Source: Promethearchaeota archaeon (lineage in GTDB: Archaea > Asgardarchaeota > Lokiarchaeia > Sigyniarchaeales > SOKP01). Taken from it: 64,000 nucleotides of DNA. The notes under the pieces are model-generated. The model was not told where the DNA came from. It did not search any database and saw only the letters and a list, made by a program, of their open reading frames with translations. Below are positions 26,251 to 34,553 of the stretch, in pieces. Numbering within the stretch: the first letter of the stretch is position 1; every line of letters begins with the position of its first letter. Both the position numbers and the translations under genes were made by a program. The stretch is taken from contig JAHPZI010000015.1 of NCBI GenBank assembly GCA_019058295.1, positions 32,001-96,000 of the forward strand, written 5' to 3'.

Positions 26251-27990
26251 ATGAGTTCCACATATAACAAGATTTCAGAAGCGCTCTCTCAGAAATTTAA
26301 GGAAATTATTGGAGATGAATACTTTTTCTCAGAATACGAAATTAGATGGACGTATGCGTTTGGGGGTACAATTTTTAGAAAGGAATGGATACCCGATTTA
26401 ATTTTATTGCCTCAAACTGTTGAACAGGTTTCTCAAATTTTAAAGTTAGCAAACGAGAATAAAATTCCCGTAACTCCAAGAGGAAGTGCTACCAGTCTAT
26501 CCGGCGGTCCTATGACACCCTATAAAGGTATAAGTCTTGATCTAACTAAGATGAATAAAATTATTAAAATAGATATTGAGAACAACCTTGTAGAAACCGA
26601 AGCTGGCGTTATTTGTGATGATTTAAACGAAGAATTAAAATCTCATGGCTATTTCTTTCCTCCTGATCCTGGTTCAAGCTCAGTAGCGACAATTGGTGGG
26701 ATGGTTGCTACGAATGCTGGTGGTATTCAGGCGTTTAAATATGGGGTTACAAAAAATTATGTTTTACATTTAGAAGTTGTCCTGCCTAATGGTAAAATAA
26801 TGAATTTAGGCACAGACGTTTTAAAATCAGTATCTTCATATAATTTAAAAGACTTATTTGTAGGCTCTGAGGGAACGCTTGGAGTTATTACAAAAATTGG
26901 TCTTAGAATTAGACCTTTACCAAAAACACGAAAATTAGGATTATTTATTTTTGATAATGTAGAGGATCTACAGAAGGCTTCAATTGAGATTCGCAAGAAT
27001 GGGATTATTCCCAATCTATTAGAATTTATGGATAAACTTATATTAGAAGCAGTGACCGATTATTTAGGAGGAGAATTCGTAGATTTCCCGAATGGATATG
27101 TTCTCTTAGCCGAAGTTGACGGAGATAATACTAAAGCGGTAGATGAAAACTTCTCTGTAATGTTTGATATAATTATCCAGAATAAACCTATTTTCCATAG
27201 AATTGCTAAAAACAGTGAGGAACGAGAAAGTTTGATTCTAGCCCGAAAGGCTAACCTTCCCGCTTTATCAAGAATAAGACCAACAACATGTGTCGAAGAT
27301 TGTACGATTAAATTATCAGATTTCGCAGATGTAATTAAAAAGATTGAGAAGATTCCTGAAAGTATTAATGCCAAAAACATGCTTGTCGCTACTATCTGCC
27401 ATATGGAGGGTAATTTACATCCTACCTTCTTATTTAATGAAAATGATGAACAGGATGTAAAAGATTTTGAAAAAGCTATTGATTATCTATATAAAGAGAT
27501 TATTATTCCAGCTGGTGGCACACTCACGGGTGAACATGGGATCGGAAAAATAAAGACGCCTTTTCTCGAATTGGAGCATGGTTCTGAGGTTGTGGATATA
27601 ATGAGGCAAATTAAGGAATTGTTTGATCCAAATGGAATTTTAAACCCCGGGATCGGAAAGGGAGACCAAAGACCTTTAAAAAAAGTTAGCGTTCAGAGGA
27701 TTCTGAAAAACCAATCAGATAAAATTTTAGAATTAAAATGTATGCGATGTGGCTTTTGTATAAGTACATGTGCTTCAAGAATTAATTATTTAATTGAGCC
27801 CTATAGTCCAAGAGGTCGATTGAGTATTTTGAATGGTCTTGTTCATGGTGAGATCGAATTAAATGAATTAATCGTAGATATATTTCAAGCTTGCACACTT
27901 TGTGGACTCTGTTATGTAAAGTGTCCTGCAGGAGTTCAGACTCATGATATTTTTGAAAAAGCAAGAGAAATTATTCATAAAAATATGTGA
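26251..27990 (+). CDS. GlcD/Dld-type FAD-linked D-2-hydroxyacid (D-lactate/glycolate) dehydrogenase fused to a C-terminal 2x[4Fe-4S] domain
   Basis: PRGSATSLSGG, FFPPDPGS, TIGGMVATNAGG, GSEGTLG, GNLHP, GEHGIG, LNPG; CMRCGFCISTC and CTLCGLCYVKCP. Confidence 0.9.
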   Translation: MSSTYNKISEALSQKFKEIIGDEYFFSEYEIRWTYAFGGTIFRKEWIPDLILLPQTVEQVSQILKLANENKIPVTPRGSATSLSGGPMTPYKGISLDLTKMNKIIKIDIENNLVETEAGVICDDLNEELKSHGYFFPPDPGSSSVATIGGMVATNAGGIQAFKYGVTKNYVLHLEVVLPNGKIMNLGTDVLKSVSSYNLKDLFVGSEGTLGVITKIGLRIRPLPKTRKLGLFIFDNVEDLQKASIEIRKNGIIPNLLEFMDKLILEAVTDYLGGEFVDFPNGYVLLAEVDGDNTKAVDENFSVMFDIIIQNKPIFHRIAKNSEERESLILARKANLPALSRIRPTTCVEDCTIKLSDFADVIKKIEKIPESINAKNMLVATICHMEGNLHPTFLFNENDEQDVKDFEKAIDYLYKEIIIPAGGTLTGEHGIGKIKTPFLELEHGSEVVDIMRQIKELFDPNGILNPGIGKGDQRPLKKVSVQRILKNQSDKILELKCMRCGFCISTCASRINYLIEPYSPRGRLSILNGLVHGEIELNELIVDIFQACTLCGLCYVKCPAGVQTHDIFEKAREIIHKNM

Positions 27991-27997
27991 GGAATGT

Positions 27998-29287
27998 ATG
28001 AGATTTGACTATGGAAAAAACGGCTTAGAAATCAATCTTGATCCATCTTGGAATGTCACTATCTTCCATCCAAAGAAACAGAAGGTTATTGAAAATCCAG
28101 TTGACGTTATTAGAAATAAAATTAAAAACCCCATTGGGAGTTCTCCTTTACGTGATATTGTAAATCAAAAGATTTCTTCCCAGAAAGTTTGTATTGTAGT
28201 AAGTGATGCGACCCGACCAGTTCCTTCGCATATTATTTTAGAGGCTATAATTAAAGAATTAAACGAATATGGAATAGCAAAAGCACAGATCACTATATTA
28301 ATTGCACTTGGATTGCATCGTCCAAGTAATAAAGATGAAATAGAACGAATAGTTGGTAAAAATATTTGGCGTCAATGGAGAATTAATGTACTACACCCTT
28401 CACCTAAAAATAGATTGCATGTTAAAGAATTAGGAAAAACGTCTAATGGATCTCCGATATATATTGATAAAGATTTCTATGAAGCCGATCTCAAGATTCT
28501 AACTGGATATGTAGAACCGCATTTCTTTTTTGGCTTTTCAGGTGGTAGAAAGGCTTTAGTACCCGGAATTGCTGGTCAAAAAACTATTATGGACAATCAT
28601 TCAGCAGAAAACATAGCCTCTCCTCATGCTCGATTCGGGATTTTTAAGGAAAATCCGTTACATCAACATGCTCTTGAAATAGCTAAAAAAATGGAGATAG
28701 ATTTTATAGTTAATGTATGTATCAATGAAGATCATAAAATTACCCAAGTAGCTGCTGGAGATTTAGAAAAAGCTCATGAAAATCTAGTTAATTATCAGTT
28801 AAAACATGTATTCAGAGAAATTTCCGAACCTTACGATATAGTAATATGTGGAAACGGAGGGTATCCTTTAGATCTCAATTTGTATCAAGCGGTTAAAAGC
28901 ATGGCTATTGGTGAGATGGCAGTCAAAGAAGGAGGAACAATTATTTCTGTGAATGAATGTTCTGAGGGTGTTGGAATAGGCCAAGAAAAGTTTAAGGAAC
29001 TCATTTTTTCGGGTATGAATCCCAAGGAGATTTATGATAAGATTCTAAATAAAGAAATTATAGTCCCAGATCAATGGGAAATTCAAATTTTAGCAAGGGT
29101 ATTAATGAAAGCTGAAATATATGTCATATCTAAGCTAAAAGAGAAAGAAATTGGAAAGATTGGATTAAAATATGCAAAATCTGTCGAAGAGGCGATTAAA
29201 TTAGGTTTAGAAAAACATGGTAGGGATGCCAAAATTCTGATCTTGCCAAATGGACCACAATTGCTTCCTGTATTGAAAAATAGGTAA
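27998..29287 (+). CDS. larA: Nickel-pincer-dependent lactate racemase (LarA family)
   Basis: SDATRP, GLHR, EPHFFFGFSGGRK, PG, YPLDLNLYQAVK, DQW; true start ATG 27998 after GAGGA (the track start at 27944 overlaps the upstream gene). Confidence 0.92.
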   Translation: MRFDYGKNGLEINLDPSWNVTIFHPKKQKVIENPVDVIRNKIKNPIGSSPLRDIVNQKISSQKVCIVVSDATRPVPSHIILEAIIKELNEYGIAKAQITILIALGLHRPSNKDEIERIVGKNIWRQWRINVLHPSPKNRLHVKELGKTSNGSPIYIDKDFYEADLKILTGYVEPHFFFGFSGGRKALVPGIAGQKTIMDNHSAENIASPHARFGIFKENPLHQHALEIAKKMEIDFIVNVCINEDHKITQVAAGDLEKAHENLVNYQLKHVFREISEPYDIVICGNGGYPLDLNLYQAVKSMAIGEMAVKEGGTIISVNECSEGVGIGQEKFKELIFSGMNPKEIYDKILNKEIIVPDQWEIQILARVLMKAEIYVISKLKEKEIGKIGLKYAKSVEEAIKLGLEKHGRDAKILILPNGPQLLPVLKNR

Positions 29288-33273: not shown

Positions 33274-33281
33274 TGGATAAT

Positions 33282-34553
33282 TTAAGATTTATTTCGAGAA
33301 TTAAGGATTCTATTCTCGTAGGATTCAATTTCTTTTATCCATTCTTTACCTATAGGAACATCGTTGCTTAAACAAAAGTAATCCCAGACGGCACCAAAGG
33401 GCAAGGTTTTGCTCTCCTCTAATAGTGCTAATCTTTGAAAATATTGCCCATTATCTTCATATTCTTGCAATAAATCTATGGGCTGAAGCAACGCATATAA
33501 AATACTTTTTTGTGTGGCTCGTGCTCCAACTACCCAAGCACCTATACGGTTTATTGAAGCATCAAAAAAGTCTAAAGCGAGGTGAATTCGTTCCATTTGT
33601 CTACTTCTCACTATTTCTTCAGCCAGCTGAATAATTTCATCATTTAAAATCGGAACATGGTCACTGTCCCATCGAATTCCGCGACTGATATGTAAGAGTA
33701 TTCCTTTAACAAATGGTAAAATCGCAGAAATCTTGTCACCTACCGATTCTGTTGGATGAAAATGTCCTGTGTCAATAGTGAGTAGTGTATTATTCGCTAT
33801 CGCATAACCTAAATAAAATTCATGGCTCCCCACTACATAAGCTTCACTTCCTATCCCAAAGAGCTTGCCTTCTAAAGAATCTATCATTTGAGAATCAGGA
33901 TATTTCTTCTTTAAAATCTCATCTAATGATTCTTTGAGCAAGATTCGATGACCTGATCGATCAACAGGGATATCTTTCATACCATCAGGGATCCAAAGAT
34001 TATGGATACATGAGCTTCCTAACTGTTTTCCCATTTCAGCACTGATTTCCCGGCATTTTTTAACATGTTCAATCCAAAATTCCCTAATCTCTTTGTTTTT
34101 ACTGCTGAGGGTGAATCCATCATTAGATTTCGGATGGGAGAATAAAGTTGAATTAAAATCTAATTTAATATTAATATCTTTAGCCCAATCTATCCAGCTT
34201 TGAAAAGATTCTGGAGTAACCTCGTTTCTTTCAACAAATTTACCCCCAAAATCTCCATAAGATTCATGCAAGGAAAATCGATGACTCCCTGGTACTAGAG
34301 AAAGTACTTTTTCGAAATCTTGCCGAAGTTCACTAATTGTCCTTGCTTTACCAGGGTAATTTCCTGTCGCTTGGATTCCTCCTCCTGAAATCTCAGCATT
34401 TGGTCTCTCAAAACCTCCTACATCATCACCCTGCCAACAAGGAATAGAAATTTGAATCTCTTTTAATTGATTAAGTATTTTATCAGTATCAATACCGAAT
34501 TCCAAATATTGTTTATTAGCATTGCTATAATATCTTTCAATCTTATCTTTCAA
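33282..34553 (-). CDS. rhaA: L-rhamnose isomerase (E. coli/Bacillus RhaA type)
   Basis: CWQGDDVGGFE, GGGIQATGNYPGKART, WIPDGMKD, KLFGIGSEAYVVGSHEFY, GHFHPTE, RWDSDHV, LDFFDASINR. Confidence 0.97.
   Translation of the reverse strand: MKDKIERYYSNANKQYLEFGIDTDKILNQLKEIQISIPCWQGDDVGGFERPNAEISGGGIQATGNYPGKARTISELRQDFEKVLSLVPGSHRFSLHESYGDFGGKFVERNEVTPESFQSWIDWAKDINIKLDFNSTLFSHPKSNDGFTLSSKNKEIREFWIEHVKKCREISAEMGKQLGSSCIHNLWIPDGMKDIPVDRSGHRILLKESLDEILKKKYPDSQMIDSLEGKLFGIGSEAYVVGSHEFYLGYAIANNTLLTIDTGHFHPTESVGDKISAILPFVKGILLHISRGIRWDSDHVPILNDEIIQLAEEIVRSRQMERIHLALDFFDASINRIGAWVVGARATQKSILYALLQPIDLLQEYEDNGQYFQRLALLEESKTLPFGAVWDYFCLSNDVPIGKEWIKEIESYENRILNSRNKS

What the first reader, a model, noticed from the sequence alone, without database searches (positions are those of the whole stretch)
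26251..34553. Candidate new pathway: anaerobic phosphorylative L-rhamnose catabolism to pyruvate via tungsten AOR, lactate racemase and D-lactate dehydrogenase in an Asgard archaeon
Seen: six genes packed with gaps of only 7, 11, 29, 34 and 8 bp: glcD-like> larA> <aldolase <aor rhaB> <rhaA. Established: RhaA, RhaB and a class II aldolase give DHAP plus L-lactaldehyde. Bacteria dispose of lactaldehyde with FucO (to 1,2-propanediol) or NAD-dependent AldA/RhaEW (to L-lactate). The archaeal rhamnose routes I know of are oxidative and non-phosphorylative. GlcD/Dld FAD enzymes are D-specific, and LarA interconverts L- and D-lactate. Inference: AOR oxidises L-lactaldehyde to L-lactate while reducing ferredoxin, LarA resolves the stereochemical mismatch, and the FAD enzyme yields pyruvate. 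Every gene fills one step and no step is missing. I know of no description of this combination.
Basis: partly seen in the sequence, partly recalled or inferred. Interest (0 to 1): 0.9.

Follow-up and report, generated by a model that had tools for sequence, protein, structure and literature searches.

The report
Asgard deoxy-sugar cluster with aldehyde:ferredoxin oxidoreductase
An uncultured Asgard archaeon packs the genes for breaking down the sugar L-rhamnose next to a ferredoxin-linked aldehyde oxidoreductase, a lactate racemase and a lactate dehydrogenase; the oxidoreductase-aldolase pair recurs in about 60 rhamnose/fucose loci of archaea and bacteria, which gives this enzyme clade a likely job (lactaldehyde to lactate) that I did not find published.

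Summary
A sister MAG and contigs from independent metagenomes show the same junctions.

Core result: this AOR is at most 37% identical to its 11 paralogs in the genome but 49-95% identical to AORs elsewhere. In 60 of 62 such loci with enough downstream sequence, a ~204-aa class II aldolase follows it. The pair sits among rhaA, rhaB-like kinase, fucI, GH78 rhamnosidase and fucosidase genes, in Asgard archaea, Bacteroidota, Bacillota and Atribacterota. AOR as the lactaldehyde-oxidising step of a phosphorylative 6-deoxyhexose pathway is therefore well supported by context, though no assay exists.

The GlcD-FeS + LarA pair is a separate two-gene module, conserved in most genomes of the family whether or not they carry rhaA. 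It lies inside the sugar cluster only in this lineage, which counts as one evolutionary event. The logic of a D-specific FAD lactate dehydrogenase plus a racemase is already known from bacterial lct clusters. This extension is plausible, not shown.

This scan has already noted AOR-aldolase pairs in deoxy-sugar loci of other genomes (Aminicenantes, Chloroflexota, Caldivirga).

Verdict: a new variant of a known pathway.

The parts
33282..34553 (-). rhaA, L-rhamnose isomerase (423 aa, TTG start)
   Evidence: PF06134 at 603 bits. NF002203 at 650 bits, above its 572 cut-off. It is the only copy in the genome.
31771..33273 (+). rhaB-like FGGY kinase (500 aa): rhamnulokinase, possibly also acting on L-fuculose
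   Evidence: TIGR02627 at 485 bits, just under its 528 cut-off. Orthologues at 55-61% identity occur both in rhaA loci and in fucI loci that lack rhaA.
31737..31770 (.). 34-bp A/T-rich divergent spacer between aor and rhaB
   Evidence: Sequence read. Overlapping TATA-like tracts and leaderless starts are my inference only.
29940..31736 (-). AOR-family aldehyde:ferredoxin oxidoreductase (598 aa); proposed L-lactaldehyde:ferredoxin oxidoreductase
   Evidence: AFOR_N and AFOR_C domains. Closest solved structures are 9g7j, 9mqx and 1aor at 505-521 bits. C290-x2-C293-x3-C297 and C488 are invariant. It is at most 37% identical to the 11 paralogs. It falls in the aldolase-linked clade.
29299..29910 (-). 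short class II (Zn) aldolase, 203 aa; proposed rhamnulose-1-P (and perhaps fuculose-1-P) aldolase
   Evidence: PF00596 and NF006413 at 186 bits. Closest solved structure is T. thermophilus FucA 2fk5. S25, G28, N29, S71, T72, E73, H91, H93 and H154 are invariant in 18 orthologues. It is the only class II aldolase found in the genome by BLAST.
27998..29287 (+). larA, nickel-pincer (NPN) 2-hydroxyacid racemase; lactate racemase is the best fit
   Evidence: Lar_N and LarA_C domains; NF033504 at 440 bits against a 460 cut-off. The motifs TRPVP, GLHR, EPHFFFGFSGGRK, NHS and YQAVK align to 2yjg. LarB, LarC and LarE are present elsewhere in the genome.
26251..27990 (+). GlcD/LctD-type FAD 2-hydroxyacid (D-lactate) dehydrogenase fused to a C-terminal 2x[4Fe-4S] domain, without CCG domains
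   Evidence: Pfam domains. Closest solved chain is 7qh2_C, LctD, at 249 bits. Two CxxCxxCxxxC motifs are present. It lies immediately upstream of larA in 20 of 29 other Asgard loci.
38458..39867 (-). MFS_2/GPH-family sugar:cation symporter; candidate deoxy-sugar or rhamnoside importer (peripheral part)
   Evidence: PF13347 at 146 bits. It is syntenic in G168 at 83% identity. MFS_2 transporters also sit in the rha clusters of other genera.

Best explanation
The locus encodes a bacterial-type phosphorylative catabolism of L-rhamnose in an Asgard (Promethearchaeota) archaeon, in which lactaldehyde is disposed of by a ferredoxin-linked oxidoreductase. The proposed steps are these. RhaA isomerises L-rhamnose to L-rhamnulose. 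The RhaB-like kinase makes the 1-phosphate. The short class II aldolase splits it into DHAP and L-lactaldehyde. A dedicated AOR-clade enzyme, always encoded just upstream of that aldolase, oxidises lactaldehyde to L-lactate and reduces ferredoxin. AOR thus replaces FucO, AldA, RhaW or RhaZ. In relatives, the kinase, aldolase and AOR appear to form a common trunk fed by RhaA and/or FucI. In this lineage a pre-existing two-gene module has been moved into the cluster: an FeS-fused FAD D-lactate dehydrogenase plus the racemase LarA. It probably carries L-lactate on, via D-lactate, to pyruvate. Status of the steps: gene identities and conserved linkage are shown; substrates, stereochemistry, the metal (W or Mo) and the electron acceptor of the dehydrogenase are inferred. 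My odds are about 0.75 for the trunk including AOR and about 0.5 for the LarA/GlcD continuation.
For: RhaA-AOR-aldolase adjacency occurs in 17 of 40 RhaA-centred Asgard loci besides the window, together with GH78 rhamnosidase, an MFS_2 transporter, RhaB and a DeoR regulator. Of 68 loci whose AOR is at least 48% identical, 60 have the aldolase downstream on the same strand. Six of the other eight are cut by a contig end. In other Asgard archaea, Bacteroidota, Bacillota and Atribacterota the pair sits with FucI, fucosidases, FGGY kinases and sugar transporters. This AOR is at most 37% identical to its 11 paralogs. It belongs to an Asgard+Bacteroidota clade with SH-aLRT 95, and the aldolase tree recovers the same groups. 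Phyletic pattern: the aldolase is found in 34 of 40 RhaA-positive and 13 of 360 RhaA-negative genomes. Catalytic motifs are intact in AOR, the aldolase and LarA. LarB, LarC and LarE are present. The FAD domain is closest to the lactate dehydrogenase LctD. GlcD-FeS and LarA form a conserved pair. In same-genus relatives RhaA, AOR-aldolase and GlcD-LarA are dispersed: in G169 they lie at C10:510 kb, C5:86 kb and C10:207 kb. In G000 and G168 they are consolidated, and in G168 FucI also flanks GlcD. Precedents: an AOR-family enzyme oxidises lactaldehyde in vitro (PMC11725836), and LctD + racemase LctF explains L-lactate use in bacteria (PMC8914356).
Against: There is no biochemical or expression evidence. 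RhaB, LarA and the aldolase each score just under their NCBIfam equivalog cut-offs. The genome also holds 3 aldehyde dehydrogenases and 3 Fe-type alcohol dehydrogenases that could handle lactaldehyde. It also holds a LUD-domain protein, possibly of Lut type, which could oxidise L-lactate. GlcD-LarA occurs in 118 of 134 genomes of the family but RhaA in only 30 of 134, so the module is not rhamnose-specific, and its adjacency here reflects one event. Some AOR-aldolase loci have no recognisable deoxy-sugar gene within 10 kb, for example the Thorarchaeota-type L142. Lactate to pyruvate (about -190 mV, textbook value) cannot reduce low-potential ferredoxin directly, and no acceptor was identified. 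In the better-model tree the Bacillota and Atribacterota AORs are not securely in one clade with the rest.
Confidence: 0.65

Rival explanations
1. Only the trunk (RhaA, RhaB, aldolase, AOR) belongs to deoxy-sugar catabolism. GlcD-FeS + LarA is a general housekeeping module for lactate or another 2-hydroxyacid that landed beside the trunk by rearrangement. Lactate made from lactaldehyde may simply be excreted.
For: LarA orthologues occur in 118 of 134 family genomes against 30 of 134 for RhaA. In genera g11 and g12 the pair sits in a fixed synteny with glpA-like, TFIIB, PlsY-like and ProRS genes. Adjacency to the sugar genes is found only in G000 and G168. LarA scores close to malate-racemase models as well: 397 bits against 440 for lactate racemase.
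Against: In G168 the pair is flanked on both sides by deoxy-sugar genes: FucI on one side, aldolase-AOR-RhaB-RhaA on the other. Several units that are dispersed in same-genus relatives were consolidated here. The product of the AOR step would be exactly the substrate of a racemase + D-iLDH system (PMC8914356). Even if the placement is accidental, the module would still act on the lactate produced.
Confidence: 0.3
2. The AOR is a generalist detoxifier, or acts on another aldolase product such as glycolaldehyde from pentulose-1-phosphates. Lactaldehyde would then mainly be reduced to 1,2-propanediol by an Fe-type alcohol dehydrogenase encoded elsewhere.
For: AOR sensu stricto enzymes are broad-spectrum; the closest structure is P. 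furiosus AOR. Three Fe-ADH genes are in the genome. Some AOR-aldolase loci lack rhaA and fucI within 10 kb.
Against: The genome has 12 AORs, and only this clade is tied to the aldolase and to rhamnose/fucose-specific genes (RhaA, FucI, GH78, GH29) across two domains. No Fe-ADH or aldehyde dehydrogenase lies in any of the Asgard clusters examined.
Confidence: 0.15
3. The 203-aa 'aldolase' is not the sugar-phosphate aldolase of the pathway. It would be another member of the class II aldolase superfamily (epimerase, dehydratase or decarboxylase), or an accessory partner of AOR.
For: NF006413 is under its cut-off, and matches to canonical FucA and RhaD models are weak or absent. Several Bacteroidota loci carry a second, RhaD-sized (274 aa) class II aldolase right after it. 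An invariant C-terminal Trp has no known role.
Against: It is the only class II aldolase detected in G000, so the pathway would otherwise lack its aldolase. The phosphate-binding SGN motif, the catalytic Glu73 equivalent and the three Zn histidines are invariant. The closest solved protein is a fuculose-1-P aldolase.
Confidence: 0.1

Closest known systems
Bacterial phosphorylative L-rhamnose / L-fucose pathways (E. coli RhaA-RhaB-RhaD and FucI-FucK-FucA, followed by FucO or AldA)
   Same: Isomerase, FGGY kinase and class II aldolase give DHAP + L-lactaldehyde. RhaA here passes the equivalog cut-off. Clusters carry GH78, fucosidase, transporter and DeoR-type regulator genes as in bacteria.
   Different: The host is an Asgard archaeon. 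The only archaeal rhamnose route I saw cited as elucidated is the non-phosphorylative diketo-hydrolase pathway of H. volcanii (Reinhardt 2019, cited in PMC10838023). The aldolase is a short ~204-aa type that is neither RhaD nor canonical FucA. Lactaldehyde is proposed to be oxidised by a pterin/FeS AOR with ferredoxin, not by NAD-dependent AldA or by the reductase FucO.
RhaEW (fused L-rhamnulose-1-P aldolase / L-lactaldehyde dehydrogenase; Rodionova et al. 2013, PMC3870299)
   Same: A class II aldolase is obligatorily coupled to the enzyme that oxidises its lactaldehyde product to L-lactate. Here the coupling is a fixed gene pair (gaps of 7-213 bp in most loci).
   Different: These are separate genes, not a fusion. 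The oxidising partner is an AOR-family enzyme, not an NAD-dependent short-chain dehydrogenase. A physical complex is not shown.
AOR sensu stricto (P. furiosus AOR, PDB 1aor) and E. limosum WOR1 (PMC11725836)
   Same: Same fold and cofactor-binding motifs, with 505 bits to 1aor. WOR1 oxidises lactaldehyde, among other aldehydes, in vitro.
   Different: Those enzymes are regarded as broad-spectrum aldehyde scavengers without a dedicated pathway. This clade is genomically locked to an aldolase inside deoxy-sugar clusters.
Bacterial lct cluster (LctD D-iLDH + EtfAB + lactate racemase LctF + permease; A. woodii, Anaerobutyricum; PMC8914356)
   Same: A GlcD-family FAD lactate dehydrogenase is paired with a LarA-type racemase, so that L-lactate can be used through a D-specific enzyme. 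The closest solved chain to the FAD domain is LctD, 7qh2_C.
   Different: No EtfAB or permease is adjacent; the Etf genes lie on other contigs. Instead the dehydrogenase carries its own C-terminal 2x[4Fe-4S] domain. The electron acceptor is unknown.

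Membership tests
L-rhamnose isomerase RhaA | Full-length match above the curated equivalog cut-off | tested here: met
   NF002203 at 650 bits (cut-off 572) and TIGR01748 at 589 bits (cut-off 585).
Rhamnulokinase RhaB (FGGY) | FGGY N and C domains, and an equivalog-level score | tested here: inconclusive
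   Both FGGY domains are present. TIGR02627 scores 485 bits, under its 528 cut-off, but far above the fuculokinase model (122 bits). Orthologues also occur in fucI loci without rhaA.
Class II (Zn) ketose-1-phosphate aldolase (FucA/RhaD type) | Three Zn-binding His, a catalytic Glu and a phosphate-binding Ser/Gly/Asn motif | tested here: met
   The alignment to FucA 2fk5 and the invariant S25, G28, N29, S71, T72, E73, H91, H93 and H154. Residue roles are taken from my knowledge of E. coli FucA.
Class II (Zn) ketose-1-phosphate aldolase (FucA/RhaD type) | Membership in a characterised FucA or RhaD equivalog | tested here: not met
   Best model is NF006413 'aldolase' at 186 bits (cut-off 203). 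TIGR01086 FucA scores 31 bits, and there is no RhaD hit.
Aldehyde:ferredoxin oxidoreductase (AOR family) | AFOR_N and AFOR_C domains, the four Cys of the [4Fe-4S] cluster, and closeness to solved AORs | tested here: met
   the CxxCxxxC motif plus C488 is invariant, and the match to 1aor is 505 bits.
Aldehyde:ferredoxin oxidoreductase (AOR family) | Tungsten (rather than Mo) in the pterin cofactor; lactaldehyde as substrate | not testable with these tools
   WtpA was not found, and one ModA/TupA-type binding protein was found, in a genome that is 79% complete. Neither result decides the question.
Nickel-pincer lactate racemase LarA | Lar_N and LarA_C domains; catalytic His pair, NPN-tethering Lys, Ni-ligand His and carboxylate-binding Arg/Tyr/Gln/Lys | tested here: met
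   Pfam domains. The motifs TRPVP, GLHR, EPHFFFGFSGGRK, NHS and YQAVK align with 2yjg. Residue roles are from my knowledge of L. plantarum LarA.
Nickel-pincer lactate racemase LarA | NPN cofactor synthesis genes larB, larC and larE in the genome | tested here: met
   LarB at 238 bits (cut-off 175), LarC at 155 bits (cut-off 90) and LarE at 259 bits (cut-off 150).
Nickel-pincer lactate racemase LarA | Lactate (not malate or another hydroxyacid) as substrate | tested here: inconclusive
   NF033504 scores 440 bits, under its 460 cut-off. The malate racemase models score 397 and 351 bits.
FAD-dependent D-lactate dehydrogenase (GlcD/LctD type) | FAD_binding_4 and FAD-oxidase_C domains; nearest characterised relative is a lactate dehydrogenase | tested here: met
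   Pfam domains. The top solved hit is 7qh2_C, LctD, at 249 bits, ahead of a chain deposited as 'Glycolate oxidase' (9qgz_A, 238 bits). D-specificity and substrate are not testable here.
Bacterial lct lactate-utilisation cluster | EtfAB (LctBC) and lactate permease encoded with LctD and the racemase | tested here: not met
   No Etf or permease gene lies in the window cluster or in the 20 GlcD-LarA loci examined. The Etf pairs lie on contigs C14 and C16.

The most novel reading that the evidence does not exclude
A distinct AOR clade is a dedicated L-lactaldehyde:ferredoxin oxidoreductase. It is inherited and transferred together with its own short aldolase as a two-gene unit; the Bacteroidota copies form one clade nested among the Asgard copies. 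This unit would convert anaerobic rhamnose/fucose fermentation from a propanediol-excreting process into a ferredoxin/H2-yielding, ATP-richer one. In this Asgard lineage the route is completed to pyruvate by a racemase plus an FeS-fused D-lactate dehydrogenase. That would be the first phosphorylative deoxy-hexose pathway of archaea, and a sugar-based source of reduced ferredoxin for syntrophic H2 transfer.
Probability: 0.45. Interest if true: 0.75.

Novelty: new variant of a known kind. Interest (0 to 1): 0.62.

Why it matters
The physiological substrates of most AOR-family enzymes are unknown, and genomes such as this one carry a dozen of them. A clade locked to an aldolase inside rhamnose/fucose clusters yields a concrete, testable assignment. 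It would add a fourth solution to the variable 'lactaldehyde step' of deoxy-sugar catabolism, beside FucO, AldA/RhaW and RhaZ. This solution sends electrons to ferredoxin and so suits H2-producing syntrophs. It would also show that Asgard archaea of marine sediments can ferment algal or plant deoxy-sugars by a phosphorylative route not yet demonstrated in archaea. Finally, it points to exchange of a catabolic gene pair between Asgard archaea and Bacteroidota.

Tried and rejected
1. Complex prediction of AOR with the aldolase returned no verdict (score 0.22, mark 0.32). It says nothing either way about channelling.

2. Sequencing runs: no RNA holder is listed for the stretch, so expression could not be examined.

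3. An Rfam scan of eight bacterial AOR-aldolase loci found no Moco/Tuco-type riboswitch, only one tRNA.

4. The tungstate-binding protein WtpA was not found in the 79%-complete genome. One ModA/TupA-type protein was found. The metal remains undecided.

5. I looked for Lut-type lactate genes beside AOR-aldolase in my loci. There is only a fragmentary LUD-domain match in Moorellaceae locus L133, split over short ORFs. I did not use it.

6. Literature. No paper holds both 'lactaldehyde' and 'aldehyde ferredoxin oxidoreductase', and none holds 'Asgard' with 'rhamnose isomerase'. The single paper holding AOR with 'rhamnulose' or 'fuculose' is a Clostridia review, which I did not open.

7. I considered and rejected misassembly. 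I also rejected the longer larA ORF starting at 27944, because orthologues start at MKFDYGK.

8. A single origin of all aldolase-linked AORs appeared in the FastTree tree but is not secure for Bacillota and Atribacterota under the mixture model.

Full report
OBSERVATION

Pfam and NCBIfam identify them as follows.
- A GlcD-type FAD oxidase with a C-terminal 2x[4Fe-4S] domain. Two CxxCxxCxxxC motifs are present and there is no CCG domain.
- LarA.
- A 203-aa class II aldolase.
- An AOR-family oxidoreductase.
- An FGGY kinase whose best match is rhamnulokinase.
- RhaA, the only one of the six that clears an equivalog cut-off.

The window is G000:C15:32001-96000 of a 3.2-Mb MAG that is 79% complete. 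Relatives carry Promethearchaeota titles, and Ras-family GTPases occur in the window and in neighbouring loci. The Asgard attribution therefore holds.

The arrangement is not an assembly artefact. The sister MAG G168 (SDNY01000013) is collinear at 86-92% DNA identity. Contigs from other metagenome runs bridge every gene junction.

THE AOR-ALDOLASE PAIR

G000 has 12 AOR genes. The one in the cluster is at most 37% identical to the other 11 and is closest to AOR sensu stricto structures, with 505 bits to 1aor.

I fetched 40 RhaA-centred loci from the 40 RhaA-positive genomes found among 400 Asgard genomes. Seventeen of them, from four genera, have this AOR orthologue next to RhaA, followed by the same short aldolase. 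GH78 alpha-L-rhamnosidase, an MFS_2 transporter, RhaB, other glycosidases and a DeoR regulator lie nearby.

I then searched one genome per species across GTDB with an alignment of these AORs. This returned 68 loci with an AOR at least 48% identical. In 60 of them the aldolase follows on the same strand, and six of the other eight are cut by a contig end. More distant AORs, at 35% identity or less, have no such neighbour.

About half of these loci are bacterial: Bacteroidales, Lentimicrobiaceae, Chlorobiota, Atribacterota, Halanaerobiales, Moorellaceae and other Bacillota. In the bacterial loci, and in a second set of Asgard loci, the pair sits with L-fucose isomerase, alpha-L-fucosidases, GH78, FGGY kinases, FucP-like MFS transporters, sulfatases and an NrtR-type regulator.

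L-rhamnose and L-fucose share exactly one special intermediate, L-lactaldehyde. The simplest reading is that this AOR clade oxidises it.

The phyletic pattern agrees, with the caveat that related genomes are not independent. The aldolase orthologue occurs in 34 of 40 RhaA-positive genomes and in 13 of 360 RhaA-negative genomes. In genomes where RhaA stands alone, the AOR-aldolase pair lies elsewhere with FucI, fucosidase, GH78 and the RhaB-like kinase. This suggests a shared trunk of kinase, aldolase and AOR, fed by two isomerases.

TREES

With FastTree, all aldolase-linked AORs form one clade that excludes every G000 paralog. With IQ-TREE under a mixture model, the Asgard+Bacteroidota clade holds (SH-aLRT 95). 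The Bacillota and Atribacterota sequences associate weakly with two long-branch paralogs, so a single origin at that depth is not secure.

Bacteroidota form one clade (SH-aLRT 98) nested among the Asgard branches. The aldolase tree recovers the same groups. The two genes have therefore travelled together, including across the domain boundary. The direction of transfer depends on a long-branch root, and I leave it open.

THE ALDOLASE

It is the only class II aldolase that BLAST finds in G000. Its closest solved relative is T. thermophilus fuculose-1-P aldolase. The phosphate-binding SGN motif, the Ser-Thr-Glu catalytic motif and three histidines are invariant in 18 orthologues, as is a C-terminal Trp of unknown role.

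It belongs to neither the RhaD nor the canonical FucA equivalog. Some Bacteroidota loci add a RhaD-sized aldolase next to it. Its specificity (rhamnulose-1-P, fuculose-1-P or both) is therefore open.

THE GlcD-FeS + LarA PAIR

LarA has all the cofactor and catalytic motifs in an alignment to 2yjg. LarB, LarC and LarE are present in the genome. The FAD domain is closest to LctD, the lactate dehydrogenase of the A. woodii Ldh/Etf complex.

The pair is not rhamnose-specific, however. LarA orthologues occur in 118 of 134 genomes of the family, against 30 of 134 for RhaA. The FeS-fused dehydrogenase lies directly upstream of LarA in 20 of 29 loci examined. There the pair normally sits in a fixed synteny with glpA-like, TFIIB, PlsY-like and ProRS genes. 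The fusion protein itself is 72-80% identical across more than 100 Asgard entries.

Only in G000 and G168 has the pair been placed inside the sugar cluster. In G168, FucI lies on its other side, so the pair is flanked by deoxy-sugar genes on both sides. G000 lacks FucI. In the same-genus genome G169, RhaA, AOR-aldolase and GlcD-LarA are hundreds of kb apart or on different contigs.

This consolidation of dispersed units into one cluster argues for a functional link, but it is a single evolutionary event.

The biochemical logic, a racemase letting a D-specific FAD enzyme use L-lactate, is established for bacterial lct clusters. There, strains without the racemase use only D-lactate (PMC8914356). 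Here the EtfAB partner is absent and is replaced by a fused ferredoxin-like domain, and the acceptor is unknown.

WHAT WEAKENS THE CASE

- No assay or transcript is available; no RNA run holds the stretch.
- Three of the six assignments are just under their curated cut-offs.
- The genome also encodes aldehyde dehydrogenases, Fe-type alcohol dehydrogenases and a LUD-domain protein that could take over the lower steps.
- Tungsten cannot be inferred from sequence.
- Complex prediction gave no verdict.

LITERATURE

The comparative study of rhamnose pathways (PMC3870299) describes RhaEW and RhaZ but mentions neither ferredoxin nor archaea. A Caldicellulosiruptor study notes that the lactaldehyde step is missing there and proposes a different enzyme.

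One MAG paper speculates in a single sentence that AORs detoxify lactaldehyde from rhamnose (PMC9324843). E. limosum WOR1 oxidises lactaldehyde, among other aldehydes, in vitro (PMC11725836). The characterised archaeal rhamnose route is the non-phosphorylative diketo-hydrolase pathway.

I found no description of the conserved AOR-aldolase pair. Earlier notes of this scan report the same pair in Aminicenantes, Chloroflexota, Caldivirga and a sulfate-reducer-type bacterium, sometimes beside Lut-type lactate genes. I confirmed the general pattern on independent loci but did not check those loci themselves.

VERDICT

The AOR step is well supported by context. The LarA/GlcD continuation is plausible, at about even odds. 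This is a new variant of the known phosphorylative deoxy-hexose pathway, new for archaea, and it offers a testable physiological role for one AOR clade.

Noticed in passing
window 27998-28838 (5' two thirds of larA) compared with L039:4024-5295: larA is a mosaic. Its first ~840 nt are only about 55-65% identical to the syntenic G168 gene. The last ~450 nt and all flanking genes are 88-97% identical. This points to a recombination tract that replaced the N-terminal (catalytic) domain in one of the two lineages.
   Followed up: partly
window 26133-26250 compared with L079 (G168): G168 carries about 1.9 kb more DNA between the OYE-like gene and glcD, and this DNA encodes an L-fucose isomerase. 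G000 has no fucI anywhere in its 79%-complete assembly, but it keeps an alpha-L-fucosidase (C14) and a GH78 rhamnosidase (C29).
   Followed up: partly
L107-L137 (Bacteroidota) compared with the Asgard loci: Bacteroidota AOR and aldolase genes each form a single clade nested among the Asgard clades. This suggests one inter-domain transfer of the two-gene unit. The direction is not settled.
   Followed up: partly
window 29299-29301 (last codon of the aldolase) and alignment A2: The last residue, Trp203, is invariant in all 18 AOR-linked aldolases, from Asgard archaea to Bacillota. Its role is unknown; it may matter for oligomerisation or for contact with a partner.
   Followed up: no
L080:2233-3165, L081 and L128: In the closest AOR relatives outside the genus (79-80% identity), a conserved 310-aa ORF with no significant Pfam family is inserted between aor and the aldolase.
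   Followed up: no
window 57281-60610: A second AOR paralog (600 aa) is followed 36 bp later by an amidase-family gene. On other contigs, two further AOR paralogs lie next to Fe-type alcohol dehydrogenase genes, at C8 around 40-43 kb and C22 around 105-108 kb.
   Followed up: no
L146 (DATKTW010000070, titled Candidatus Nanopelagicaceae): This contig has the same length (35,318 bp) and the same gene order as the Asgard contig G255:C70. It is probably an Asgard contig binned into an actinobacterial MAG.
   Followed up: no
L193-L210 (GlcD-LarA loci of genera g11 and g12): The usual home of glcD-larA is a conserved block, divergent from a glpA-like FAD dehydrogenase, a pyridine-nucleotide-disulfide oxidoreductase and a 109-aa ORF, and followed by TFIIB, a PlsY-like gene and ProRS. 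In some genus g12 loci larA follows an NMO/FabK-like FMN gene instead of glcD.
   Followed up: partly
L064:13458-14228 and cluster c36: Bacterial-type DeoR-family regulators sit inside several Asgard rhamnose clusters.
   Followed up: no
window 51362-52921 and 39975-42473: One gene is a 519-aa protein with a Ras/Roc GTPase domain and a long N-terminal extension. The other is an 832-aa protein with C-terminal TPR repeats and a weak N-terminal MIT-domain match (residues 12-41). Both are typical Asgard 'eukaryote-like' genes.
   Followed up: no
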